A stretch of DNA of 27,942 bases, counting the filler, from an uncultured virus (IMG/VR IMGVR_UViG_2522125086_000001) (lineage: Duplodnaviria > Heunggongvirae > Uroviricota > Caudoviricetes). It is 4 parts of one record of this genome, joined end to end, with 100 filler letters (N's around TTAATTAATTAA, not from the genome) between each part and the next. Parts side by side here need not be neighbours in the genome. Positions count along the whole stretch, not along the records: positions 22,417 to 27,942 come from IMGVR_UViG_2522125086_000001; 3 more parts are not named here. One strand, written 5' to 3'. Positions 5,265 through 27,942 of the stretch are shown here, piece by piece (positions within the stretch are counted from its first letter, which is position 1; every line of letters begins with the position of its first letter). A program made the translations under genes and the position numbers. The notes beneath the pieces are model-generated. The model was not told the DNA's origin and ran no database searches. It saw only the letters and a program-made list of their open reading frames with translations.

Positions 5265-5818
5265 TGTCGATGACCAGATAATATGTCCCTCTTTTGCTCA
5301 ATCGGTTTGTCCCAATATCTGAACTTCGGAGATACAATATTGCTCACTGGCTTTGTNNNNNNNNNNNNNNNNNNNNNNNNNNNNNNNNNNNNNNNNNNNN
5401 TTAATTAATTAANNNNNNNNNNNNNNNNNNNNNNNNNNNNNNNNNNNNNNNNNNNNATCAGACTCCGGAGGCTGGTTAACCTGAAAGCTACTTCGATGAA
5501 CATTGGGAAGTCATATCCTACGGCTTCCCTCAAAATCAATAGATCTTCCTAAAAATACTTCTCACGTTTCGGAAAAGCAAATTTGCTTCTTCCTCTCTGG
5601 TAACTTAGCAATATCTATTTATCTCATTCTTTATTCCGGTGTAATCACTCCAGATTTAGGATTACTGTATCTGGTGTAAAAAAATCTGTTACAGCTGTAA
5701 CCCGTAATTTACAGGTGTAACGAAATGATCTGGAGGGGCAAAATCACTGAGCAGAATGAAAGTTAGTGCCGGACAAACCTAGCAAGCAAAAAAGGGACAG
5801 ACTCAGAGAGCATCGACA
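5265..5818. mobile_element. IS21-family-like element (interior collapsed in an assembly gap)
   Basis: Ends TGTCGATG...CATCGACA; tandem ~19-bp subterminal repeats (TGCTCAnTGrnTTTGTCCC-like) at both ends; 5-bp TSD GGTTG at 5260-5264 and 5819-5823; family inferred from end structure only. Confidence 0.8.
5357..5456. other. Assembly gap with artificial linker
   Basis: N-run containing TTAATTAATTAA (stops in all frames); the same construct occurs at all three gaps. Confidence 0.95.
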
Positions 5819-8800
5819 GGTTGGACTAAGTCTGATGTTAAAGACATCTAAGAGTTTACTGCTAATACAAGGAGGCAGGTGCAGAGCAAAACAGATAAGA
5901 ACAACAGTTTTTAGGTCTGGCTCGTTCTTGCCATTGATGATTCTGCTAATTGTTGTTGGATCTCTTCCAATGGTGTAAGCAAGTTCGTTCTGCTTTACGT
6001 TTCGCCAAACTAACAGTTGTTTTAAGCATTTAGTAGGGTCGTCTGTCATATCCCTTCGTATCTTAAGGGCTTCAGCCATGACATTTTTTCTGTGTTCGGT
6101 CTGTTTTTCCTTTGGTGCTGTTTTCAGTTCGTTATGAAAACTAACTTCAAAAGTTACATCACTTTCGTCACGATTAAGAAAACAAACAGTTTGGTAATCT
6201 TTGTTTATATTATTCTTGATTTTTAAATCAAATACCAAACAGCACTCATCCATATGGGCGAGGGCATAATCAGTGAGTTCAAGCCGTCCGTCAGCTGAGG
6301 TTTGAACATACTGAGGCGCATTGTAGACAAAATGGTTGTCAACGAATAGGTAGTCCCCATTTTCAGTTAGATTACGCAGTTCTTGGTTTTTAAACCTTTC
6401 CACTGCCGCATCATAGGCTGATATGGAGAATGTTTGGTTTGGTTTAAGGAGTCCCGGTTTAAAGCTATGTGCTTTAACGTAATGACCATCAACATATGTG
6501 TAGGCTCCAACAGCCTGGTGAAAGCCTAATTGAACGAGTCTGATTTTGGCGGATTGTCTTGAAACATTGAATTCTTGTGCAAGATTATCTATGACTTGCT
6601 CCATGACTTCAAACTCATACTTGGCACGGTTCAGCCGTTGGAGGTTTACAATATATTCCTTGGCTCTTGCCTTAAATGGTTCGGCGGGCATTTGAATTCT
6701 TGGGGCTAACTGGTTTGCTTGCCATTCTATGAATTTTAATTCTTCTTGGGCTTTCTGTTGTTCAGTCTTAGTAGCCACTTCACAGGTGATGCGAGAGACC
6801 TTTGAGTCAAAGAGTTTCTCTAGTAGAAATGCCTTTCTGTGCATAACCCAGTGAACACATTCGTGGATGATGGTGTTGTTTATTGAGCCATAACTTGAAA
6901 AGCAAAACCTATAAGGATCAACAACAATAGTCCGAGCACTTATGTGTGATGAACCATCACTGAATAGATCAGAGACATCAGCATCAGTGTCTTCAAAATA
7001 AATCTGACCAAATACAGAATCGCTTCGAATTACCTTTTGTTCTACCTTTAGGCCTAGTGTTTCAGCCAAAATAAAGGGATCAACTGTAACAGGAATTCCT
7101 CCCGATGCTCGTGATAAAGCGTTAGGATAGTACGATTTTAAGAATTCTGTTGCAATATCCTCTAATTGTTCTGAAGAAATGTATGGAACCAGGGAATCGG
7201 ATAAACAGTTGGTAGGAGCATTCTTTTTGAAATATTGTACGATTTCATCAGTTTGGATCTCCCATTCCTTTATGTCTTTTGAGAGATCCCCTGTGCATGG
7301 GACACGAATCCATGGAGTACATGTGTCACTTTCGTCAAAATGATAATCTGCTTCCCTGACTTCTAATTCCAATTCGAGAATAACATCAAAGGCTATTTTC
7401 GTTCCTGGCAAATCATTTACATAGACTTTATTTATTCTTGTGTCCAACAGTTCTATTTCGCCGATTTCCTGAACTTTACGTAATTTAAGCTCTAGAGTAT
7501 CTCCATGCTCATTGAGATACTCTGATGCCACGTTGCAAAGTTCATCGATAAAATTATTGTTTAAGAATTTTGTAAATGAATGGCCAAAAGCCATAGGTTA
7601 TTCTCCTTATAATTTCTTCCCCGTTCTAAGAAGAGTTAAACAATTTTTGAAATAAATAATAGTTTCGAGTGTTCTAATATATCACAAGATTTCAAAAAAA
7701 AGATTGTGTGTCAATGATTAGAGATAAATCAGCTATTGATGATATAACAAATGTAACTAATCCTTTTTATAAAACCCGCACTCATACCCATCCGCTCTGA
7801 GTACCAGTCCCGGAATCCACTCAGGCGTTCTGCCCATCTGTTCACAAATCTTCTCTAACGATACCTTTTCGGAACATTCAATGATTAGTTCGTCATGAAC
7901 GTGGCCGACGATGAAGCAGTGTTTCAGAGTTTGCATGGCATAGGCAAGAATGTCCCGGCTGACAGCCTGAACGATGTTTTCCACAAACTTAGGTCCGTAG
8001 CTCTCGATTCTGCTCCATTTCTTGGTTGCATCAATCCCCATATAGGTGACACTCTCGCCACCGAATTGGTTCATGCCGATACGGGGCTGAACGTAGGCAA
8101 GCTTTCTGCCAGAAGGTAGGGTGATGAACAACATGCCGTTTTTAACGGTGAATTCCAGACAGCCGACTTTCTCAGTGGTGTGTAACTGAACAGCTGTCTT
8201 TACCGCATTATCTATCTGCCACCAGAAAGAGACTATGTTCGGATTTGAATTTCTCCACATATTAACCAGCGGTTGCAGTTCATCCTCGGAAAGTCCCATA
8301 TCTAGTGCTCCCATGGCTTTAAGGGCTCCGACAGATCCGCCGTAACCAAGGGCGAGTTCCGCTATTTTACCTTTCTGCCTTAAATGACTGTTGGCTCCGT
8401 GCTTTTCCACGGGAACATGGAACATCTGACTGGCGCTGGCACAGTAGATATCACCGCCATTGCGGAATACATCTGTACGCCACTGCTCTCCTGCCAGGTG
8501 ACTCAAGACTCTTGCTTCAATGGCACTGAAGTCAGAAACGATAAACTTGTAACCGGGACGTGGGATGAAAGCTGTACGGATTAACTCTGACAGAACATTC
8601 GGAACAGAGTCATACAGCATATTCAGCATTTCATAGTCACCGGCTTTCACTAAATCACGTGCCTGTTCCAAATCTGACATATGATTCTGAGGTAGATTCT
8701 GGAGTTGAATCAGTCTTCCTGCCCAGCGTCCGGAACGGTTCGCTCCGTAAAAAAAGAACATGCCTCTACATCGACCGTCTGAACATACCGCGTTTTGCAT

Positions 8801-9409: not shown

Positions 9410-9694
9410 CCTTTGTTCCGCACCCAATGACGACAATACGAATGGACAGTCCTTATGTGATAAGGAGTCTGTCCAATTATCAAATTAGAATTTTGCTATG
9501 NNNNNNNNNNNNNNNNNNNNNNNNNNNNNNNNNNNNNNNNNNNNTTAATTAATTAANNNNNNNNNNNNNNNNNNNNNNNNNNNNNNNNNNNNNNNNNNNN
9601 TTTCAAAGGTAAAAAAAACGTTCAAGACTTATGTGAATTGAACGTATCGCTCATTGAATCTTAAGAATTACAGGGATCAGTTGCGGAACAAAGG
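9410..9694. mobile_element. IS with 13-bp TIRs and long TSD (interior in gap)
   Basis: CCTTTGTTCCGCA at 9410-9422 and TGCGGAACAAAGG at 9682-9694; subterminal hairpins at 9443-9475 and 9618-9645. Confidence 0.85.
9501..9600. other. Assembly gap with artificial linker
   Basis: N-run with TTAATTAATTAA. Confidence 0.95.
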
Positions 9695-13133: not shown

Positions 13134-14960
13134 ATGCCAATTTACCGGAATATTGTTGTTGACATTCCATCTAAAAGCTATATCGAGAAAAAGGATCAAA
13201 GTGTATTTGTAAAGGACAGGAACGAATATGATCCTGCTGTGAAATATAATCGGGTAAGCCATGTAATTATCGGCAGGGCAATTGACAAGACAAGGATGTA
13301 CCCCAACCATAATTTCCGCATGAGATATCCTGAAGCTTTTCAGCAGGCGGCGGGAGAACCGCAGCTGAAATCCATAAAGAGGATGGGGATGTATGCCGTT
13401 GTCCTGGCTCTTCTGGAAAAGAACTCCATGTACCGGTGCCTGCACGAAACCATGGGAATTGAGTCGGCAAACCTGATTCTTGATTTTTGCATGTATTCCA
13501 TACTCCATCATTCAGCTGTTTCCGATCACTTCAGAACAGCCATGTCTGAACAGCTGCTGTTCTCCCGCAATCTCAAATCCGGAAAGGATTTATCTTCGTT
13601 TTTTAATCAGGATGAGAATATTGAAAGGCTGGAAAGGTTCAAGACAGAATGGGCAGGAGCCTGCAAAAAACGCGGGATAAAGAATGTCTGGCTGGCAATT
13701 GACGGCTCAAATAACGATTGCGCCGCAGATGCCGATATTGCTGAGCGGGGGTACGCAAAATCCAAAAAGGATGTTCCGGTCGTTAGTTATCTTTATGCTG
13801 TTGACAGCAGTGACGGAACCCCGATAAGCTTTGATGTTTACCGGGGCAGCCGAGTTGACAGCAAAGCCGTTATGAAAATGATCGGATGGCTGAAAGCATA
13901 TGAGATGAATGTCAAAGGGGTGGTGGTTGACCGGGGTTTTGCAACCAAAGATGTTCTTGAGATGCTTGACAGCAATGAACTTCAATATGTTGCCATGCTC
14001 AAGGGAGATACAAACGCTCATAAGACAATGCTTGCCGAATATGCATCCAAAATCAGCAGGCAATTCGAGTTCATGCTGGACAGATATGATAACAGCGGAA
14101 AAACAGACAATGTCAGAGTCTTCAGCAGTAATGACAATGTTTACTATGGGATATCATCAGAGGATAAGGTTAAGCTGTTTAAGCAGCATAAGTATAAGGC
14201 TTATGTTTCCCTGATTTTTGACGGACAGAACGGTGAGGAGCGCCAGCAGAACTGGTTTAAAAAGGTCTCTAATGCTGCGGTGGATTTGCAGAACAGACTG
14301 AATTCAGGAGAAGATGCCAAAGTTCCGAAGGAATTTGAAAAAAGCATGGAAATCCAGCAAAATGAAGGCAGGAAAACAGTCCTGATAAATATGGAAAAAG
14401 TACAGATCTGCGGCGATCAAAAAGGATTCAGTTCTCTTGCAACTTCCGAAAAGATGAGCGCCGGAAGAGCCAATGAAATTTACACCATGCGAAGCTCTGT
14501 TGAAGCTGATTTTGCGATAGTTAAAACTCAGCTTGGTTACGGCAAGACCGGAGTACACAGTGAAACAGGGATAAAAACCAAGATTTCCATTGGTTTCATC
14601 GCCTCTGTGATTCGAAATGAACTGCTGAAAGCTGCAAAAAAGGCGGGACTTCCTACCAATAAAATAGCAAAGGAAATCAACTACATTACGATGGGGCTCA
14701 ATCAAAGCGACCGGTATTTTGTCTCTCATACCGAAAGTAAGAAACAAAAAGAGTTCCTTAAGGAATGCGGTGTTCTCCCTGCAGATCTGGATCGTATAGC
14801 CGAGGCTGAAAATAAGAGAATTTCCAGTAAAGAACCGAACCCGTTCCACAAATTCCCTAAAGCTAACACAAAGGAAAAAAAGTCAAAGAGCGGACAGTCA
14901 AAAGCTGACAATTCCTCCGTCAGCGGGACAACATCTGTTACTGCTGACAAAGAGGAATAA
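13134..14960 (+). CDS. DDE transposase (IS1634/IS4 superfamily)
   Basis: LAIDGS, GYAK, VVVDRGF, Y..R..VE..F..K (YREK-like) motifs; single ORF filling the IS. Confidence 0.88.
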   Translation: MPIYRNIVVDIPSKSYIEKKDQSVFVKDRNEYDPAVKYNRVSHVIIGRAIDKTRMYPNHNFRMRYPEAFQQAAGEPQLKSIKRMGMYAVVLALLEKNSMYRCLHETMGIESANLILDFCMYSILHHSAVSDHFRTAMSEQLLFSRNLKSGKDLSSFFNQDENIERLERFKTEWAGACKKRGIKNVWLAIDGSNNDCAADADIAERGYAKSKKDVPVVSYLYAVDSSDGTPISFDVYRGSRVDSKAVMKMIGWLKAYEMNVKGVVVDRGFATKDVLEMLDSNELQYVAMLKGDTNAHKTMLAEYASKISRQFEFMLDRYDNSGKTDNVRVFSSNDNVYYGISSEDKVKLFKQHKYKAYVSLIFDGQNGEERQQNWFKKVSNAAVDLQNRLNSGEDAKVPKEFEKSMEIQQNEGRKTVLINMEKVQICGDQKGFSSLATSEKMSAGRANEIYTMRSSVEADFAIVKTQLGYGKTGVHSETGIKTKISIGFIASVIRNELLKAAKKAGLPTNKIAKEINYITMGLNQSDRYFVSHTESKKQKEFLKECGVLPADLDRIAEAENKRISSKEPNPFHKFPKANTKEKKSKSGQSKADNSSVSGTTSVTADKEE

Positions 14961-15202: not shown

Positions 15203-15474
15203 TCACTACCTAATGCCCAGAACCGGATTGCTTTTACAAAAAATTTTTAACTTTTTTTTCAGCAGCGGTTTTCTGCGCCTTCACTACCTAATGCCCAGAA
15301 CCGAGAGGCTTTTACAAAAAATTTTTAACTTTTTTTTCAGCATCGGTTTTCTGTGCTTTCACTACCTAATGCCCAGAACCGAGAGGCTTTTACAAAAAAT
15401 TTTTAACTTTTTTTTCAGCATCGGTTTTCTGCGCCTTCACTGCCTAATGCCCAAAACCCGGTGGTTTTTACAAA
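15203..15474. repeat. Tandem array of ~3.5 units with 78-bp period
   Basis: Units start at 15203, 15281, 15359 and 15437; each carries CTAATGCCCA(G/A)AA-N9-TTTTACA. Confidence 0.92.
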
Positions 15475-15533
15475 CATCTTTTTATGCCTGGAAATAGAGG
15501 AAGAAGACTGTCGGAAATTTTTTAAAGATTTTT

Positions 15534-21360: not shown

Positions 21361-21741
21361 ATGCCAAGAAGACCGAAACGACCGTGTTCCTTCCCGGGAT
21401 GCCCGAAACTTACTGACGGAAGGTTCTGTGAGGAACACGCCAAAGCTGAAGCAAGACGCTACGAGAAGTATCAGCGTGATCCGGAGGCAAGAAAACGCTA
21501 CGGAAAGGCATGGACAGTCATTCGAAAAGCCTACGCTGCCGAGCATCCTTTCTGCGAGGTCTGCCTTTCGCAGGGAAGATATACACCAACCGAGGCAGTC
21601 CACCACATTAAACCGCTCTCCCAGGGCGGAACCCACGATATAAGCAACCTCAAGGCTGTATGTAAAGCCTGTCATGCCCGAATTCACGGTGAAATCGGCG
21701 ACAGATGGAGCAGAAAAGTAAAGGATTACGACCACAAATAG
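21361..21741 (+). CDS. Packaging-associated HNH endonuclease
   Basis: MPRRPKRPC..PGC; CEVC...VHHIKPLSQGGTHDISNLKAVCKACHARIH; ATG at 21361 preferred over the ORF-track start. Confidence 0.85.
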   Translation: MPRRPKRPCSFPGCPKLTDGRFCEEHAKAEARRYEKYQRDPEARKRYGKAWTVIRKAYAAEHPFCEVCLSQGRYTPTEAVHHIKPLSQGGTHDISNLKAVCKACHARIHGEIGDRWSRKVKDYDHK

Positions 21742-21762
21742 CGATGTTAATCCCGATTTTAG

Positions 21763-21850
21763 GCCCCCAGGGGCGGTCAAAATCGCTGAAATTTTAATCA
21801 AAAAGCTTCGGCCCCTTGCCTCCACGCAGAAAAACGCAGTTTCAAAAACG
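21763..21850 (+). other. Putative cos-like packaging site
   Basis: GC-rich GCCCCCAGGGGCGGTCAAAATC... immediately after the packaging HNH, the usual cos position; positional inference only. Confidence 0.4.
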
Positions 21851-21965
21851 GTAATAACCCCGGACAGTTTTCATTCAGCCATTGAGTTGCCTGCATTCCG
21901 ACTACTTTCCGCTCAGTAATTTTTTCAAACAATAAGGATTTTGTATTAGGTCTAAAGTCAGCACT

Positions 21966-22316
21966 TTAGGCCTTCTTAAATTTCCATGGCATTGCCTGCT
22001 CAAGAATAGTATTTCTTCTTTCATCAGACAGCGATTCATCTTTCAGTTCGTCTCTGTGAATACCCATATATCTGAACAGAAATTCAAGGTAATCTTCCAG
22101 GTCAACTCCATGGATTTTGCAGGTTTCGTGAAATGATGAAAACACAGCCGTAGACTTAGCTCCCTCAATAGAGCCAAATCCGCTGGGCATTGAATGTCTC
22201 AGCACTGCAAAGTCACGAATAGCTCTCTCGGCGGCCGAGTTATCCAGAGGAATAGAGCCGTCCTCCAGAATTCTGGTGAATTTTTCCCACTGATTGTGAG
22301 AGTACTTGACCGCTTT
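21966..22316 (-). mobile_element. IS66-family transposase TnpC, C-terminal part (truncated by gap)
   Basis: KAVKYSHNQWEKFTRILEDGSIPLDNSAAERAIRDFAVLR...GAKSTAVFSSFHETCKIHGVDLEDYL. Confidence 0.88.
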
Positions 22317-22416
22317 NNNNNNNNNNNNNNNNNNNNNNNNNNNNNNNNNNNNNNNNNNNNTTAATTAATTAANNNNNNNNNNNNNNNNNNNNNNNNNNNN
22401 NNNNNNNNNNNNNNNN
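22317..22416. other. Assembly gap with artificial linker
   Basis: N-run with TTAATTAATTAA. Confidence 0.95.
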
Positions 22417-22726
22417 ATGCGTCTACTCATTAACCCCAGTTTTGTATCAGCATTTTATAAATGCCAAAAAAAGAACAGGGTTTACAGGCAAGTCCACCTC
22501 CGTCTTTGATCGTATCACTTTTCAAATTTCGTTACCGTGGATGGCCTCCAAGTTTTTCCTTTCACCACCAGGCCACTTCTCAAATGCATGGGCAGGCTCT
22601 AAGGCCTTATAGGTTTCAAGAGCGAAAACTTATGTACCGGACCATGAACTTACAACGGTCTAGTACTTTCTTTCATGGGGTATGTCAGGGATAAAACGGC
22701 CATACCCTGGGTGATTTGAGGAGAAA

Positions 22727-25300
22727 TTATTTAACACTTGACTCATACTTAACTATTCTGTTACGGGTTTCATCCATACAGGATAGTTGAGTTAATACTC
22801 TTTCCCAATATGGTATTTTGGTTTTTCGCCAGATCCTAGCAAGTTCGCTACGATATAAAGTATTAACTACGGCTTTTGTATTTTCAAACAGCTTATTGGC
22901 AGTAATTTTTAACAAATATGAATTTAAAGATTTGAGTGCGTTTACAGTTGTACATGTCACTTTGCGTATTTCGGCAGGATAATTATAAAGCTGATGTATA
23001 TGCTCAAAATTATTTTCCCATATTTTGACAGCTAGCGGATGATCTTTTACCCATTTGTTTTTTAAAGATTCACAGGCTGTTTCGGCTGATTTTAGATTAA
23101 CTGCACCATACACTTTCTCACAATCTGCACAAAAGTCTTTTTTTAATTCTTTTGAAGGAATGAATTCTGTAGAATTTATGATTAAATGGGGAATGCTACA
23201 CTGAACAACTGTTTTAGGAAATATGGAATGTATTGAATTCTCTAGATCATAAGATACCTCATTCACACATAAAAACAAAATATCGTTAACTCCTCTATCT
23301 TTTATTGAATTTAAGATGTCGGCCAGTTTGGATTTATCGTCAGAAAAGGCCTGAATATGTAATAATTCTTTGTTCCCTTCAGTGTTAATTCCATAAAAAA
23401 CGTACACAAAGCTGGATTCAATATTCTTTATTTTTACGTCAATACGATCTACAAAAACGAAACAGTATATATTTTCAAGTGTGAAATTTAATTGTGGTAC
23501 ATTTCGTTCAGCAAATTTATCACCACAATTGAAATCATGACATTGTATTTGTCTTGAATGTGTTGGTAAACCTTGTTTGTTTGCAAATTCAATTAAATTT
23601 TTATTATTTTCTTCTTCTCTAAGTGATTGATTTTTGTATTCATTACTATTGATATAATTAGAGAATTCTTTTCTAAGAGTTAATTCTATATAAAAACTAT
23701 TATCCTTTATCGAAAAATATGAAGTAATTAAATCTTTAATAGGGTTATTAATATATATTAGCTTATTTTTAGTTTGGTCATAAAGTAGTGAGTTATCTTT
23801 AAATAGGATTTCATTGTCCGTTTTTTTTAATTTGAATGTAATATCATGATGTAAATTATGATATAAAAGCAGATTAGCTGTTGCATCGTTTATATTTTGC
23901 TCGATATTGAAATAATTCTTGATATTAGTAAGTTCAGTAAAACATCCTTCATTTATGTTTTCAAAAATTTCATATATGCATAAAATATTGTAAAACAATC
24001 TCATAATGTCAGTAGGCAACTGAGTGGTTTTATCTTTGGGTAAATCTTCTGCAATATGTTCAAAATTACGTTTACGTTTATTTGAAGCTTGTCTAATTTC
24101 ACTCTTGTACGGGTTTGCATCTTCATAACCGCATGATTCTTCACCATATGCTAAGATAAAGGCAGTATAACTATATAAAAGATAAATAATATTAGTTTTT
24201 GTCGATTCTGCTTTTAACAATCTATTATAGTTTGATTGCGATAACAGCTCAATAAAAGCTAAGAATTTATCTGTAAAATTCTTGGTGTAGCTAGAGTTTA
24301 TTTGGTGGTTATCAGTGCTATTCTGTAGTTGAGTTTTTAATGAATCCTGTACCTTGTTAACCAAAATTTGCAGATTATTATCATGCTCTAGAAAAGATTT
24401 AACTGATTTGTATATATGCTCGAAATCTTGGTTGTTATTACCGATATTTTCTTGTAATTTGTTTGAGATTTCAAAAAATTCTTTAATGGCTGATCCAGTT
24501 TTTTTTAAATCAAATTTAGTGCCTATTGATTCTGAAAGTTTCGTGGCTATTTTTAATTTTTGTTTCCTCGTCTTAATTTCAGCAACGTTTTTTAAATATA
24601 TAAACAAGTGTTCTCTGTCAATTGTAATATGAGTTGTTTTGCTATTTTTTCTTATCTCATTAATTTTTTTATCAATTTGTTTTAGAAAAATGTTCAGTGT
24701 TTCTTTCGGCATATTAAGTGCTTCAAGTGTTTTATTTAATGCTTTTAGACATAAATTAAGGTCATTATTAATGCGTATGTTAAAATCATTAATTGAACTT
24801 ATTTCTTCAGGTTCAAAATTGCGTTCTAAATGTTCGTTTAATTTATCTATTATTGGTTTTATACTGCCATCAACGGAATACCCTTCGAATTGCATTTTAT
24901 CAAAAAGGCTGCGATTCAATTTAGATAAACCTTTTCTAAAGCAAAAATAAATGTCAGTCCAAAACTTAACGTTTTTTTCTAATTCTTTGGTGGTGATTGA
25001 AACATCCATACCTAAAATTGTTTTACATGTTCTTTTTAGATTCTTTACTATACATGCTGTGTTATGGGGGATAGTAGTAGCTTCTTGGTCTTTATTTGAT
25101 GTAGCTATATCTTGTTTGAACTGTGGAACCCAACATTTACGCGTGGATTTGTCTTTATCTTTGTCTTTCTCTTTGACTAAATAATCGCAAATCGAAATAA
25201 CTTCATTGATGTACTTATCATCATTGAGTTTTTTACGCCATTCGTCATGATATTTTTTTACTATCGATTCTTCACCTCGTTTTTTTTCATCCTTTGACAT
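22727..25300 (-). CDS. 857-aa protein: unknown helical N-terminus fused to a degenerate IS256/Mutator transposase domain
   Basis: C-terminal ~280 aa follow the IS256 pattern (YCFVFVD, YGINTEGNKELL, IKDRGVNDI, IFPKTVVQ, KKDFCADCEKVY, WENNF, YPAEIRK, TT.NAL); very AT-rich. Confidence 0.8.
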   Translation of the reverse strand: MSKDEKKRGEESIVKKYHDEWRKKLNDDKYINEVISICDYLVKEKDKDKDKSTRKCWVPQFKQDIATSNKDQEATTIPHNTACIVKNLKRTCKTILGMDVSITTKELEKNVKFWTDIYFCFRKGLSKLNRSLFDKMQFEGYSVDGSIKPIIDKLNEHLERNFEPEEISSINDFNIRINNDLNLCLKALNKTLEALNMPKETLNIFLKQIDKKINEIRKNSKTTHITIDREHLFIYLKNVAEIKTRKQKLKIATKLSESIGTKFDLKKTGSAIKEFFEISNKLQENIGNNNQDFEHIYKSVKSFLEHDNNLQILVNKVQDSLKTQLQNSTDNHQINSSYTKNFTDKFLAFIELLSQSNYNRLLKAESTKTNIIYLLYSYTAFILAYGEESCGYEDANPYKSEIRQASNKRKRNFEHIAEDLPKDKTTQLPTDIMRLFYNILCIYEIFENINEGCFTELTNIKNYFNIEQNINDATANLLLYHNLHHDITFKLKKTDNEILFKDNSLLYDQTKNKLIYINNPIKDLITSYFSIKDNSFYIELTLRKEFSNYINSNEYKNQSLREEENNKNLIEFANKQGLPTHSRQIQCHDFNCGDKFAERNVPQLNFTLENIYCFVFVDRIDVKIKNIESSFVYVFYGINTEGNKELLHIQAFSDDKSKLADILNSIKDRGVNDILFLCVNEVSYDLENSIHSIFPKTVVQCSIPHLIINSTEFIPSKELKKDFCADCEKVYGAVNLKSAETACESLKNKWVKDHPLAVKIWENNFEHIHQLYNYPAEIRKVTCTTVNALKSLNSYLLKITANKLFENTKAVVNTLYRSELARIWRKTKIPYWERVLTQLSCMDETRNRIVKYESSVK

Positions 25301-25626
25301 TTTTTTATTCCTACTGTTTTAACTTAATCTCAGTTATTGTTAATCAATCGGTTACGACGATACAAAATCCTCAATTGATTTATTATGTAAATATCAATTT
25401 CGTGTTCAAATGTGACAATTAACGATAGTTTATTGTTTTTGGGGGGGCATTGTACTAGCGTTTGTTCACATTATTGTAATCAAGCTAAAAAACGAATGCG
25501 ATTTTCGGATGTGGTCATGATAGTGCTGCAGATCAATTGTTATGGGCATTGTTTACTTAATGGTAGCACGTTTTCATTTGTAAATCTCCTCTGTTACTTG
25601 GCACAGGAAAGAGAAGGAAATTTTTT

Positions 25627-25655
25627 TGTAAAAAGTACCTACTTCTGGGCATTAG
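25627..25655 (+). promoter_or_regulatory. Element-specific bipartite motif ahead of the recombinase module
   Basis: TGTAAAA-AGTACCTAC-TTCTGGGCATTAG. Confidence 0.7.
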
Positions 25656-25689
25656 TAGGTAGGAACAGTAGTTTTACAGGAGAACCACA

Positions 25690-25902
25690 ATGCAAGTAAC
25701 CGAAGTTATATCAGTCACTACACCTTCCACCACACTCAGCCAAATCACCCAGGATCAGCTGCAGCAGGAATTCAACTTTCTGCGGGCGGAGCAGATTACC
25801 AGAACCATGCTCAACCAAGGTCTTATAACGGCTGATGAGTACCGGAGGATCATGGTAGAGAACACGATCACTTTCCCGACATTTATCTCGTCTATCCTTT
25901 GA
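25690..25902 (+). CDS. SHOCT-like small protein preceding serine recombinases
   Basis: LQQEFNFLRAEQITRTMLNQGLITADEYRRI; AGGAG RBS. Confidence 0.75.
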   Translation: MQVTEVISVTTPSTTLSQITQDQLQQEFNFLRAEQITRTMLNQGLITADEYRRIMVENTITFPTFISSIL

Positions 25903-25966
25903 TTATTAAGTTGCTATAGGTTCGACACAGAGCAACTATGTTACCAATTCAACAGGAGACGAGACT

Positions 25967-27523
25967 ATGAAAAAGATAACCAAAATTGAGTCTGTGACCA
26001 CGCAGCGCAAGAAAAAATTGCGGGTTGCGGCTTACTGCAGAGTATCAACTGCAAGTGATGAACAGCTTGTCAGTCTTGAGACTCAGAAGGCTCACTACGA
26101 AGAATACATCGCATCAAATCCAGAATGGGAGTTCGCCGGACTCTACTACGATGAGGGACTTTCAGGAACCAAAAAGGAAAAGCGTCCGGCACTTATGCAG
26201 ATGATCACGGACTGCGAGAACGGGAAGATTGACTTTATTGTCACCAAGTCTCTAAGCCGTTTTGCCCGCAACACCACCGACTGCCTTGAACTTGTTCGCA
26301 GACTCCTGAAACTTCACATTTCGATTTACTTCGAGAAGGAGAACCTCAATACCGGCTCCATGGAAACCGAGCTGTTTCTTTCTGTAATGAGCAGTCTGGC
26401 AGAGAGCGAATCAGTTTCAATTTCGGAAAACAACAAGTGGGGAGCCCGGCACCGCTTTGAAAACGGCACTTTCAGATTAAGTTATGCACCGTACGGCTAC
26501 AGTCTCACTGACGGAAAGCTTGTCATCAATGAGGATGAGGCTGAGCAGGTTCGGTTTATTTTCAATGAAACGCTGTCCGGGAAAAGCGCCCGTCAGATCG
26601 CAACCGCTCTGAATGATAAGAAGGTCCCTTCAAAGAGAAACGGCATGTGGACTTCTGCCTCGGTGCTAAACATTATGCGAAATGAAAGGTATGTCGGGGA
26701 CTGCCTTTATCAGAAAACCTACACGGACTTCCGGCTCAGACGCCACATAAACCGAGGTGAGGTCGATCAGTTCTATGAAGAAAATCATCACGATGCCATT
26801 GTAAGCAGAGAGGTTTTTGATGCTGTCAGCAAGGTTATCAATCAGGAGCATAAGGAGAAGAACAGGTCTGAAGGAAATCTGAAGTACCAGAACCGTTATG
26901 CCTTCAGCGGGAAACTGCTCTGCGGTGAGTGCGGCTCAGTCTTCAAACGTAGGATCAACATTACCGGAAAGCTCAAATATCCGGCATGGGTCTGCAGTGT
27001 TCACCACAAGGATCGAACCCGATGCTCAATGAAGTATGTGCGTGAGTCAGTTTTGGAGACAGCTTTTACAACCGTGATGAACAAACTGATTTTCGGCAGA
27101 AAAGAGGTGCTGCAGACACTTCTTGATAACCTGACCACCCAATCTCACAAGTCAAGACTTCGCAGAATTGATGAGGTTGAGAGAACTTTAGAGGAAATGC
27201 AGGACCGCAAACGAAACCTCACCTCCATTATGACAAAGGGGTATCTGGACCTTGCTGCTTTTACCCGCGAGAACAATGAAATTACGGCTGAGACAGAAAA
27301 GCTGATGGAAGAACGTGATCAGCTTAAGTCTGAAATCACCGGAGATCTGAACAGAACTGAATCATTGAGGGACATCATTAAATTTACGGGTAAAAGCGCA
27401 ATGCTGTCGAGCTTTGATGCGGAGCTTTTTGAAAGGTTCGTTGATCACATTGCTGTGGTTTCACGGACTGAACTTGAGTTTCATCTGAAATGCGGAATGA
27501 AGGTTAAGGAGATGGTTGAATGA
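25967..27523 (+). CDS. Large serine recombinase
   Basis: AAYCRVST (catalytic Ser), DEGLSGT..RP, KSLSRFARN, recombinase domain, Zn ribbon CGECG, coiled coil. Confidence 0.95.
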   Translation: MKKITKIESVTTQRKKKLRVAAYCRVSTASDEQLVSLETQKAHYEEYIASNPEWEFAGLYYDEGLSGTKKEKRPALMQMITDCENGKIDFIVTKSLSRFARNTTDCLELVRRLLKLHISIYFEKENLNTGSMETELFLSVMSSLAESESVSISENNKWGARHRFENGTFRLSYAPYGYSLTDGKLVINEDEAEQVRFIFNETLSGKSARQIATALNDKKVPSKRNGMWTSASVLNIMRNERYVGDCLYQKTYTDFRLRRHINRGEVDQFYEENHHDAIVSREVFDAVSKVINQEHKEKNRSEGNLKYQNRYAFSGKLLCGECGSVFKRRINITGKLKYPAWVCSVHHKDRTRCSMKYVRESVLETAFTTVMNKLIFGRKEVLQTLLDNLTTQSHKSRLRRIDEVERTLEEMQDRKRNLTSIMTKGYLDLAAFTRENNEITAETEKLMEERDQLKSEITGDLNRTESLRDIIKFTGKSAMLSSFDAELFERFVDHIAVVSRTELEFHLKCGMKVKEMVE

Positions 27524-27942
27524 GACAGAACAACACTTTTTTAGGTTACCGGATTGAGGATGGAAGGGCTGTGGTTCACGAGAAGGATGCCGCTAAAGTC
27601 AGACTGCTTTATAAGGGATATCTTTCGGGACTGAGCTATATCGATGCAGCAAAGTCTGTGGGACTGGAACTGAATGCCTCATCAGTCAAAATGCTTATGC
27701 GAAACGTCCGCTATGCCGGAGATGATTTTTATCCACAAATTATAGATCGCACCACCTTTGATGCGGCTGAAAGCGAACGCCTTCGCAGGTGCAGGCTTCT
27801 CGGGAAGAAGGAAGGGCAGAGCAAAGAGAAAGCACAGAAAACAGTACCGCAAAATTTTTCATTCAGGAAGTGTCTGAAGACGTTCGGAGACCCGTTTAAA
27901 CAGGCTGAGTACATTTACAGTTTAATTGAGAGTGAGGTGTAA
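27520..27942 (+). CDS. Small recombinase-domain protein (middle gene of tandem serine recombinase cassettes)
   Basis: LGYRIEDG, MRNVRYAGDDFYPQIIDRTTF, DPFKQAEYIYSLI; no catalytic N-domain; overlaps the upstream stop. Confidence 0.8.
   Translation: MRQNNTFLGYRIEDGRAVVHEKDAAKVRLLYKGYLSGLSYIDAAKSVGLELNASSVKMLMRNVRYAGDDFYPQIIDRTTFDAAESERLRRCRLLGKKEGQSKEKAQKTVPQNFSFRKCLKTFGDPFKQAEYIYSLIESEV

What the first reader, a model, noticed from the sequence alone, without database searches (positions are those of the whole stretch)
22727..25300. Large orphan protein fused to an apparently dead IS256 transposase domain: candidate domesticated transposase
Seen: an intact 2574-bp ORF in very AT-rich DNA, which argues for selection. 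The IS256-like region keeps the first catalytic Asp (D618), but the second (normally CVDG) reads CVNE (N680), the Glu (normally TTNAIES) reads TTVNALKS (K790) and CxxH reads SIPH. I saw no flanking TIRs. About 575 N-terminal residues are helical with no motif I recognise. It occupies the cargo slot of an island that also carries type I RM. Inference: an exapted RNase H-fold nucleic-acid-binding module, possibly a defence or anti-transposition factor.
Basis: partly seen in the sequence, partly recalled or inferred. Interest (0 to 1): 0.75.

Follow-up and report, generated by a model that had tools for sequence, protein, structure and literature searches.

The report
Dead transposase core fused to orphan protein
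A prophage in a livestock-gut bacterium carries an intact gene that joins a large protein of unknown kind to a transposase core without its catalytic residues, so a jumping-gene enzyme seems to have been kept for another, still unknown, job.

Summary
The sequence observation holds. ORF 22727-25300 (-) is intact, encodes 857 aa and has 28.7% GC. Residues 607-857 are an IS256/Mutator-type catalytic core with D618, N680 (for the second Asp), K790 (for Glu) and SIPH (for CxxH). All relatives that cover these positions share N, K and SxxH, and half have Val at the first Asp, so the core is dead across the family. The core is at least as conserved as the N-terminus and at most 39-47% identical to any active IS256 I found, so it is not a recent read-through. 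The IS256 dimerisation and end-binding domains are missing. In their place is a ~600-aa, mostly helical module with no family or fold match. This module also occurs alone (612-627 aa) in two other metagenome clades.

The window is four contigs joined by N-linkers, and the type I RM lies on another contig. The gene sits next to the SHOCT/serine-integrase end of a prophage, in a variable cargo slot, and an IS110-family end lies 8 nt after its stop.

Best reading: an exapted, non-catalytic transposase core on an orphan effector or scaffold, carried as prophage cargo. Function was not tested, and dN/dS could not be computed.

The parts
22727..25300 (-). Intact single-copy gene, 857 aa (P0001): orphan N-module plus a dead IS256-type core
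   Evidence: open frame, P about 2e-34, GC1/2/3 = 0.36/0.27/0.23; the only full match in the nearest held genome G001
23501..25300 (-). N-module, aa 1-600. Mostly alpha-helical with a small alpha/beta part at aa 488-542. No known family or fold. Occurs alone in P0004 and in P0015-P0018
   Evidence: relatives; model pLDDT 65, pTM 0.70; no fold match
22727..23482 (-). Dead IS256/Mutator-type catalytic core (RNase H-like domain, helical insertion domain and C-terminal helices), aa 607-857
23447..23449 (-). Codon D618, at the position of the first catalytic Asp (Val in 5 of 10 relatives)
23261..23263 (-). Codon N680, replacing the second catalytic Asp (N in 10 of 10)
23186..23197 (-). S702-I-P-H705, replacing the CxxH motif of the insertion domain (9 of 9)
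22931..22933 (-). Codon K790, replacing the catalytic Glu (K in 9 of 9)
22417..22718 (-). Non-coding left end of a multi-copy IS110-family element. It ends 8 nt from the stop codon, and the contig breaks inside the element
   Evidence: 24 matches in G001, the 12 longest at 96-100% identity; in L013 the repeat abuts a 480-aa ORF with DEDD_Tnp_IS110 and Transposase_20
22317..22416 (.). Artificial contig-joining linker (N44-TTAATTAATTAA-N44). DNA to its left is not shown to be adjacent
25301..25622 (-). 5' flank of the gene: AGGA about 10 nt before the ATG, and promoter-like hexamers at 25418-25390 and 25409-25382 that are not above chance. The low-GC block fades between about 25420 and 25720. 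One metagenome contig diverges to the left of 25622
   Evidence: table 7
25690..25902 (+). SHOCT-domain gene, the first gene of the divergent recombination module
25967..27523 (+). Large serine recombinase (518 aa). It is followed by a 140-aa ORF (27520-27942) and, beyond the window, by a second 521-aa serine recombinase

Best explanation
The gene encodes a non-mobile, catalytically dead descendant of an IS256/Mutator-type transposase. [quoted passage not shown] It has no metal-binding triad (D/V, N, K) and an altered CxxH motif. No similarity to the IS256 domains that dimerise and read the transposon ends was detected in the 600 residues before it. Those residues form an autonomous, mostly helical module of unknown fold that also exists as a free-standing protein in related metagenome lineages.

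The gene is low-GC imported cargo in the variable slot between the lysis genes and the SHOCT/serine-integrase module of a prophage in a livestock-gut bacterium. It is transcribed divergently from the integrases.

Shown: the architecture, the dead motifs and their conservation, single-copy status, rarity, and the cargo-slot position.

Inferred: the dead core is kept as a non-catalytic nucleic-acid-gripping or structural module that serves the N-module. As a lysogen-side cargo gene, the protein most likely acts in conflict with other mobile DNA (superinfection exclusion or defence) rather than in transposition.

The confidence given covers the whole statement. The architecture and exaptation part alone I would put near 0.75, and the conflict role near 0.3.
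For: Dead core. The alignments to 6xg8 and to the host IS256 (probability 99.9, 40% identity) start only at the catalytic domain. ISCth4 residues 1-165 are the dimerisation, NDB and HTH domains, and D175/D241/E348 and C262/H265 are the active-site residues (PMC7780238, passages and section 12). N680 is present in 10 of 10, K790 in 9 of 9 and S702/H705 in 9 of 9 aligned relatives. The first Asp is Val in 5 of 10.

Kept, not decaying. The frame is open at P about 2e-34. Six further relatives of 902-929 aa exist. The indels against P0001 are in frame, and the P0001 core is 75-82% identical to theirs against 73-80% for the N-module.

Old, not a recent capture. Core GC3 is 0.255, like the N-module (0.222), while the host IS256 gene has GC 0.446. 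The best active IS256 among 2590 matching plasmid records is 39% identical, and the best in the host genome is 40-47%.

Autonomous N-module. P0004 (627 aa) and P0015-P0018 (612-616 aa, on contigs up to 19 kb) align along the N-module and stop at the W..KF.DRD motif, just before the core would begin.

Cargo slot. Housekeeping genes start about 6 kb beyond the recombinases. In a related prophage (G018) the order is tail, GT8, holin, amidase, [a DUF285 gene on the opposite strand, its 5' half at 30% GC], SHOCT, recombinases. G025 carries yet another gene beside the same module. The G001 scaffold places tail, GT8, holin, amidase and low-GC small ORFs before a 3529-N gap that ends at the gene's contig.

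Presence elsewhere. Pieces 0-3% different occur in bovine and pig gut metagenome contigs, and pieces 1-12% different occur in one bovine gut metatranscriptome library.
Against: No function was tested, and nothing links the protein to defence. PADLOC gave only E 0.041 and 0.093, and there is no partner gene of known type.

dN/dS could not be computed, because no DNA of any relative could be fetched.

The family is tiny and closely related: three 90%-identity clusters and 11 sequences. Shared dead residues could therefore partly reflect recent common ancestry.

Some members are shorter: P0010 and P0011 are 772 aa and start at M136, P0009 is 691 aa and P0006 is 91 aa. I cannot tell whether these are broken genes or cut contigs. 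P0001 itself lacks about 75 aa that the other fused members have.

Adjacency to the lysis genes rests on a scaffold gap in another assembly and on synteny, not on contiguous sequence.

Promoter-like sites are not above chance: 20 found against 17.8 +/- 4.2 in shuffles. RNA-library contigs may derive from DNA.
Confidence: 0.5

Rival explanations
1. A functionless relic: a chance fusion of an orphan ORF with an IS256 remnant that hitch-hikes on a prophage and has not yet been broken.
For: The distribution is very narrow. The N-module was found in 1 of 401 genomes of the order and nowhere in the 185,579-species pattern scan other than the window's own genome. Some relatives are shorter, and P0001 has an internal deletion of about 75 aa. 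IS110 and IS66 debris surrounds the locus.
Against: A frame of 857-929 codons stays open in about 28% GC DNA in at least seven sequences that differ by 13-27% at the protein level, and the indels against P0001 are in frame. The core is not less conserved than the N-module, and outside the catalytic positions the IS256 motif stretches are kept. The core is only 39-47% identical to active IS256, so the fusion has outlasted a long divergence.
Confidence: 0.15
2. A transposition regulator: the dead core interferes with active IS256 elements of the host, in the manner of truncated-transposase inhibitors.
For: The host carries intact IS256 copies with YVDC / MCMDG / TTNAIES motifs. The protein keeps the catalytic-domain and insertion-domain surfaces and the His of CxxH. 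In related transposases this His touches the scissile phosphate (PMC7780238, section 12).
Against: IS256-type dimerisation and end recognition use the DD, NDB and HTH domains, and no similarity to them was detected here. The core is only 40% identical to the host's IS256. The gene rides a prophage as foreign low-GC cargo rather than sitting with the IS. The free-standing N-module relatives have no core at all.
Confidence: 0.1
3. A phage-side function unrelated to conflict, for example a regulator of lysogeny or a helper of the neighbouring serine integrases.
For: The gene is divergently placed next to the SHOCT/serine-recombinase module. The 5' flank up to about 25649 is also present in pig and bovine gut contigs (records 14 and 31).
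Against: Related prophages with 81-83% identical recombinases carry different genes at this place. In the bovine metagenomes, summed contig depth over the recombinase part is about ten times that over the gene (table 2; this is a weak measure). GC of 28.7% against 47% marks the gene as imported.
Confidence: 0.1
4. A still-active transposase of an unusual giant IS that uses non-canonical residues, for example E681 next to N680.
For: E681 is invariant, directly beside the lost Asp, and H705 is kept.
Against: The Glu is a Lys in 9 of 9 relatives, and the first Asp is Val in 5 of 10. The gene is single-copy in the genome. No inverted repeats lie around it. It scores below the NCBIfam IS256 cutoff (132 against 150 bits).
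Confidence: 0.03

Closest known systems
IS256-family (Mutator-superfamily) transposases, e.g. ISCth4 TnpA (PDB 6XG8; PMC7780238)
   Same: [quoted passage not shown] The secondary-structure order in the model agrees. The first Asp (in this allele) and the His of CxxH are kept.
   Different: No similarity to the DD, NDB or HTH domains was detected. The second Asp is Asn, the Glu is Lys and the Cys of CxxH is Ser. There is a 600-aa unrelated N-terminus. No TIRs were found. The gene is single-copy. It scores below the NCBIfam equivalog cutoff.
Eukaryotic domesticated Mutator-like transposases (FHY3/FAR1, MUSTANG). Recalled, not from a call.
   Same: The same transposase superfamily was turned into an immobile, single-copy host gene that acts without transposing.
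   Different: Those proteins keep their own N-terminal DNA-binding zinc finger and act as transcription factors. Here the native DNA-binding region is gone, a foreign module is attached, the host is a bacterium, and the gene rides a prophage.
Truncated-transposase inhibitors such as Tn5 Inh, and nuclease-dead TnpB derivatives (TldR). Recalled, not from a call.
   Same: These are transposon-derived proteins that have lost catalysis or DNA binding and have been repurposed, some of them on prophages.
   Different: Inh works through a retained dimer interface with its own active transposase, and here no similarity to the IS256 dimerisation domains was detected. TldR belongs to the RuvC/TnpB lineage and is RNA-guided. 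No guide RNA or Rfam family was found here.
Prophage 'moron' / lysogenic-conversion genes between the lysis cassette and the integrase
   Same: The slot is variable across related prophages, the composition is foreign, and the strand is opposite to the neighbouring phage genes.
   Different: The product matches no known moron, superinfection-exclusion or defence family.

Membership tests
IS256-family transposase (functional IS) | Transposase_mut / IS256 catalytic-domain homology | tested here: met
   Pfam PF00872 scores 101.3 bits (cutoff 21), but covers only profile positions 155-366 of 379. PDB 6xg8 gives E 1.4e-32.
IS256-family transposase (functional IS) | Full-length equivalog score (NCBIfam NF033543) | tested here: not met
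   132.2 bits against a cutoff of 150.
IS256-family transposase (functional IS) | Intact DDE triad | tested here: not met
   The triad is D618 / N680 / K790. Relatives have D or V, then N, then K.
IS256-family transposase (functional IS) | C/DxxH motif in the insertion domain | tested here: not met
   The motif reads SIPH in 9 of 9 relatives. The motif is defined in PMC7780238.
IS256-family transposase (functional IS) | N-terminal dimerisation, NDB and HTH domains | tested here: inconclusive
   The profile comparison with the host IS256 aligns only from its residue 163 onwards, and the Pfam, NCBIfam and PDB matches start at aa 607. A remnant diverged beyond detection in aa 490-606 cannot be excluded.
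IS256-family transposase (functional IS) | Terminal inverted repeats with a subterminal TGTAAA and target duplication | tested here: inconclusive
   No TIR pair flanks the ORF, and no match to the host IS256 ends was better than E 0.17. However, only 8 nt remain 3' of the stop before an IS110 end and the contig break.
IS256-family transposase (functional IS) | Multiple copies in the genome | tested here: not met
   There is one full match in G001. The six other matches are ordinary IS256 copies or pieces at 33-47% identity.
Domesticated (exapted) transposase | Transposase-derived domain in an immobile, single-copy gene | tested here: met
Domesticated (exapted) transposase | Purifying selection across lineages (dN/dS below 1) | not testable with these tools
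   No DNA of any relative could be fetched. Protein-level proxies are favourable.
Domesticated (exapted) transposase | Demonstrated new function | not testable with these tools
   This needs experiments.
Prophage cargo (moron) gene | Lies inside a prophage at a slot that varies among related phages | tested here: met
   The gene is contiguous with the SHOCT/serine-recombinase end, with core genes beyond. The slot holds other genes in G018 and G025. The link to the lysis genes crosses a 3529-N scaffold gap.
Prophage cargo (moron) gene | Foreign composition and own transcription unit | tested here: inconclusive
   GC is 0.287 against about 0.47, and the gene is on the opposite strand. Promoter and terminator matches are not above chance.
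Known anti-phage defence systems (PADLOC-DB 2.0) | Significant match to a defence-protein model | tested here: not met
   The best matches are E 0.041 (ZorA) and 0.093 (DruC) for P0001. P0002 and P0004 match nothing.

The most novel reading that the evidence does not exclude
The protein is the first member of a new kind of prophage-borne conflict factor. In it, a catalytically dead Mutator/IS256-type core has been recruited as a sensor or clamp for foreign DNA ends or transposition and replication intermediates. The core directs a new ~600-aa helical effector that also works alone in related lineages. This would be a bacterial counterpart of the eukaryotic domestication of Mutator-like transposases.
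Probability: 0.25. Interest if true: 0.8.

Novelty: new variant of a known kind. Interest (0 to 1): 0.5.

Why it matters
Domesticated DDE transposases are well known in eukaryotes but are rarely documented in bacteria. Two full-text searches found no paper describing a domesticated or catalytically dead IS256-type protein in bacteria. This case offers a clean natural experiment: the same orphan module exists with and without a dead transposase core, so the contribution of the core can be tested directly. If the protein acts in phage or mobile-element conflict, it adds a new protein architecture to prophage-encoded functions. If it does nothing, it shows how long a dead fusion can stay intact while hitch-hiking. 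Its practical weight is limited by its rarity, since it is seen only in a handful of livestock-gut sequences.

Tried and rejected
- **Island context with type I RM.** Rejected. The contigs are joined by linkers.
- **A second fused gene in the genome (an '1150-aa ORF' with IS256 similarity).** Rejected. It is an ordinary IS256 gene read through a stretch of N.
- **The 627-aa ORF 6 kb to the right as P0004.** Rejected. It is an IS4-like transposase.
- **Searches for relatives with DNA.** The genome-contig scan returned only an unrelated 33% match to the core. Two metagenome-contig scans found nothing, and four viral-contig scans found nothing. tblastn of the N-module against plasmids and phages found no match. 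An HMM of the N-module found only the window's strain among 401 genomes of the order.
- **Word-index searches.** These covered only the 'near' length range.
- **Fold of the N-module.** Foldseek against PDB gave 0 matches at E <= 0.001 (best E 0.34, TM at most 0.13). VIA-align against 48,161 chains gave a best Z of 6.2 and none at 8 or above, which is helical-bundle background. BFVD gave 0 matches at E <= 0.001. The ESM Atlas gave no usable hit for P0001 and only leads under 0.9 for P0015. This does not show that the fold is new. The model is of middling confidence (pLDDT 65), and its domains were not searched one by one.
- **Full-length model.** Too poor to use: pLDDT 40.9, with the N-terminal 611 residues under 50.
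- **Rfam on 21700-26000.** Only a chance-level snoRNA match.
- **Sequencing runs.** Laid contigs did not bridge the stop codon into other downstream DNA. Parts without cover, and small-share runs that I did not lay, are not used as evidence. Per-site differences inside the gene were not printed, so no synonymous/non-synonymous count was possible.
- **Earlier notes of this scan.** None found.
Full report
**The ORF is real.** The minus-strand frame 22727-25300 is open for 857 codons from an ATG preceded by AGGA. The DNA has 28.7% GC. About 8.6% of random codons would therefore be stops, and the chance of an open frame of this length is about 2e-34. The other five frames carry 29-133 stops, and 500 shuffles never gave more than 204 open codons. 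GC falls from codon position 1 to 3 (0.36, 0.27, 0.23) in a coding-like way. It is similar in the two halves of the gene (GC3 0.22 and 0.26). The surrounding DNA has 0.47-0.50 GC.

**The C-terminal domain.**
- Residues 607-816 match Pfam Transposase_mut (E 6.8e-29, profile positions 155-366 of 379).
- Residues 607-846 match the solved IS256-family transposase ISCth4 (6xg8, E 1.4e-32, chain 167-409).
- A profile of the family aligns to the host genome's own intact IS256 transposase only from its residue 163 onwards (probability 99.9, 40% identity).
- According to the ISCth4 paper, residues 1-165 are the dimerisation, N-terminal DNA-binding and HTH domains. D175, D241 and E348 form the active site, and C262/H265 form the CxxH motif of the helical insertion domain. 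I read passages and section 12 of PMC7780238.
One residue (V786) is inserted before the lost Glu.
- The NCBIfam IS256 equivalog scores 132 bits, under its cutoff of 150.

So the protein keeps the catalytic and insertion domains. It has lost two of three metal ligands and the Cys of CxxH. No similarity to the parts that make an IS256 transposase dimerise and recognise its ends was detected.

**Relatives of the fused form.**
- The word-index search found two clusters of fused relatives, P0002 (910 aa) and P0003 (905 aa).
- Their 90%-identity clusters add P0006-P0013. All are unnamed and come from ENA or Logan metagenome assemblies.
- I aligned 10 of the 11 family sequences, leaving out the 91-aa fragment P0006.
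- N680 is present in 10 of 10 sequences, E681 in 10 of 10, K790 in 9 of 9, and S702/H705 in 9 of 9 (P0009 ends earlier).
- The first Asp is D in 5 sequences and V in the 5 members of the P0003 cluster. In that clade nothing of the triad is left.
- Between P0001 and the six other sequences of 902-929 aa, the core is 75-82% identical and the N-terminal 600 residues 73-80%. Among all pairs the core is as conserved as the N-terminus or more so, except in pairs with the mosaic P0007.
- The length differences against P0001 are in-frame indels. P0001 lacks about 75 residues after aa 190 and has 14 extra near aa 500.

Results against a simple picture of selection:
- P0010 and P0011 (772 aa) start at M136, P0009 has 691 aa and P0006 has 91 aa. 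Without their contigs I cannot say whether these are damaged genes or cut contigs.
- I could not obtain DNA for any relative, so dN/dS is not available.

**Age of the core.** The best of 2590 plasmid records with an IS256-type match is 39% identical, and all are under 60%. In the nearest held genome (G001, which shares 100% of the window's sampled words), the other six matches are ordinary IS256 copies or pieces at 33-47% identity. One of them is an intact 418-aa gene with YVDC, MCMDG and TTNAIES. That gene has 44.6% GC. The dead core is therefore not a recent read-through into a resident IS256. It has diverged for a long time and has the composition of the rest of the gene.

**The N-terminal module.**
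- No Pfam, PADLOC or PHROG family matches it. The best values are Pfam E 0.038, below the cutoff, PADLOC E 0.041 and PHROG E 0.099.
- An exhaustive phmmer of residues 1-600 against 1.84 billion representatives found two proteins at E <= 0.001: P0001 itself and P0004 (627 aa, E 1.8e-12).
- BLASTP aligns P0004 with residues 1-448 at 23% identity (E 5e-24).
- P0004 led to P0015 (616 aa, 38% identical to P0004). Its cluster has four members of 612-616 aa on contigs up to 19 kb, so this length is a complete gene.
- Neither P0004 nor P0015 has a transposase domain. In the joint alignment both end at a W..KF[ED]DRD motif, which corresponds to residues 592-600 of P0001, just before the core begins.
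- Thirty-odd polar or aromatic positions are invariant across fused and free forms, among them C92, W114, C120, R122, E139, D144, H157, C390, D394, D419, D431 and R434.
- The module shows no convincing membrane helix. The maximum 19-residue hydropathy is 0.87 in P0001, although it reaches 1.8 in P0015.
- An AlphaFold2 model from the six-sequence alignment has mean pLDDT 65 and pTM 0.70. It is helical apart from a small alpha/beta part at residues 488-542.
- It has no significant match in PDB by Foldseek, in 48,161 PDB representatives by VIA-align (best Z 6.2) or in BFVD.
- The full-length model was too poor to use (pLDDT 40.9), though the core shows the expected strand and helix order.

**Context.**
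- The window contains three artificial joints of the form N44-TTAATTAATTAA-N44, at 5357-5456, 9501-9600 and 22317-22416.
- The gene's own contig starts at 22417. Its first 302 bases, ending 8 nt from the stop codon, are a repeat with 24 matches in G001. In a copy without gaps, this repeat is the non-coding end just upstream of a 480-aa ORF with DEDD_Tnp_IS110 and Transposase_20 domains. So an IS110-family element sits directly downstream, and the assembly broke inside it.
- To the right, the contig continues with a SHOCT gene, a 518-aa large serine recombinase, a 140-aa ORF, a second 521-aa recombinase, a few small ORFs, DUF1349 and an IS4-like transposase. Core genes follow: Rrf2, flavodoxin, RelA/SpoT, CTP synthase, enolase and IspD. 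The recombinases thus mark the right end of an integrated element, and the gene lies just inside it.
- Among 61 related genomes, 4 (G001 included) hold a close relative of the recombinase.
- In G018 the same module (83% identity) follows tail, glycosyltransferase, holin and amidase genes. The slot next to SHOCT holds an opposite-strand DUF285/zinc-ribbon gene whose 5' half has 30% GC.
- In G025 (81% identity) the slot holds yet another gene.
- G001 is a different scaffolding of the same contigs. It places tail, glycosyltransferase, holin, amidase and about 2 kb of small ORFs at 29-35% GC before a 3529-N gap that ends exactly at window position 22417.

Together these results place the gene in the variable cargo slot between the lysis and integration modules of a prophage. 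The link across the gap is inferred, not sequenced.

**Distribution.**
- The gene was not found in IMG/VR, JGI metagenomes, PLSDB or INPHARED with the queries used.
- It was found in no species-representative genome other than the window's own.
- Public runs from bovine and pig gut metagenomes hold it. In the laid contigs, several pieces of 240-520 nt are identical (X3, X4), and a 668-nt piece differs at 20 places (X5). Two contigs carry the gene's start together with the upstream DNA, one to about 25595 and the other to about 25649.
- A bovine gut metatranscriptome library holds pieces at 24305-24709, 24771-24979, 24959-25402 and 22869-23166 with 1-12% differences. This is only a weak hint of transcription.

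**What it most likely does.**
- Transposition is excluded for practical purposes: there is no triad, no end-binding domains, one copy, and no inverted repeats.
- A poison-subunit role against IS256 is unlikely, because no similarity to the dimerisation domains was detected.
- What remains of the transposase is a fold whose job is to hold DNA ends. It keeps the His of CxxH, which in related transposases contacts the scissile phosphate.
- My best reading is that this core is retained as a non-catalytic nucleic-acid-binding or structural module attached to an autonomous orphan module. The whole would be a lysogen-side cargo gene acting against other mobile DNA.
- The architecture and the cargo position are shown. 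The DNA binding and the conflict role are inferences with no direct support, since PADLOC is negative.
- The main rival is a hitch-hiking relic. The test between the two is dN/dS and the gene neighbourhoods of the relatives' contigs.

**Comparison with what is known.**
- The protein works like, but is not a member of, the functional IS256 transposases: four defining features were tested and not met.
- The nearest concepts, recalled rather than taken from any call, are the eukaryotic Mutator-derived FHY3/FAR1/MUSTANG genes and, in bacteria, repurposed dead TnpB derivatives and truncated-transposase inhibitors.
- Two full-text searches found no paper on a domesticated or dead IS256-type protein in bacteria (a third search failed).
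- I rate it a new variant of a known kind. Interest is moderate: the case is clean and testable, but rare and without a demonstrated function.

Noticed in passing
window 5357-5456, 9501-9600, 22317-22416: Three artificial joints of the form N44-TTAATTAATTAA-N44. The window is a pseudomolecule of four contigs, so gene order across these points is not evidence of linkage. The nearest held genome orders the same contigs differently.
   Followed up: yes
window 22417-22718; G001:C2:684335-685191: The ~300-nt non-coding end of an IS110-family element has 24 matches in the genome. They include three head-to-tail copies at one locus without an intervening transposase gene. In this IS family the non-coding end is known (recalled) to encode a guide-like RNA. 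Rfam found nothing in L013.
   Followed up: partly
L013 279-1391 (-): A TnpB-like gene (OrfB_IS605 plus the Cas12f1-like TNB domain, 370 aa) lies next to an IS110-family copy.
   Followed up: no
window 13134-14960 (+) and L016 6514-8397 (-): Two related IS4-like DDE_Tnp_1 transposases of 608 and 627 aa. The first sits between oppositely oriented halves of a phage replication module: DUF2800, Enc34 SSB and PolA on the minus strand, and VapE, SNF2, sigma and HNH on the plus strand.
   Followed up: no
window 15213-15497 (+): The ORF translation shows a peptide repeated three times (MPRT..LLQKIFNFFFS.GFL), which points to a tandem DNA repeat of about 80 nt just upstream of the VapE-like primase gene.
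   Followed up: no
window 21966-22316 (-): An IS66-family C-terminal remnant (PF13817, below the cutoff) runs into the contig end. In G001 a coiled-coil ORF start, which matches no IS family in Pfam, runs into the scaffold gap on the other side.
   Followed up: partly
L017 2235-5684 (-) (G001:C1:1768734-1772183): An otherwise intact IS256 transposase gene with a complete DDE triad is interrupted by about 2.3 kb that reads N in the held genome.
   Followed up: partly
window 5744-7594 (-): A 616-aa protein combining an IrrE/M78 peptidase-like domain with a C-terminal HTH_3 domain, on its own short contig.
   Followed up: no
L035 12918-15078 (G001:C1:769917-772077): Four small ORFs of 113-220 aa without family matches, at 29-42% GC. 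They lie between the prophage amidase and the scaffold gap that precedes the gene, and could be part of the same imported cargo block.
   Followed up: partly
window 25575-25585: A single TGTAAA, the subterminal motif of IS256 ends, lies near the edge of the low-GC block. Its orientation would point away from the gene, and it is compatible with chance.
   Followed up: no
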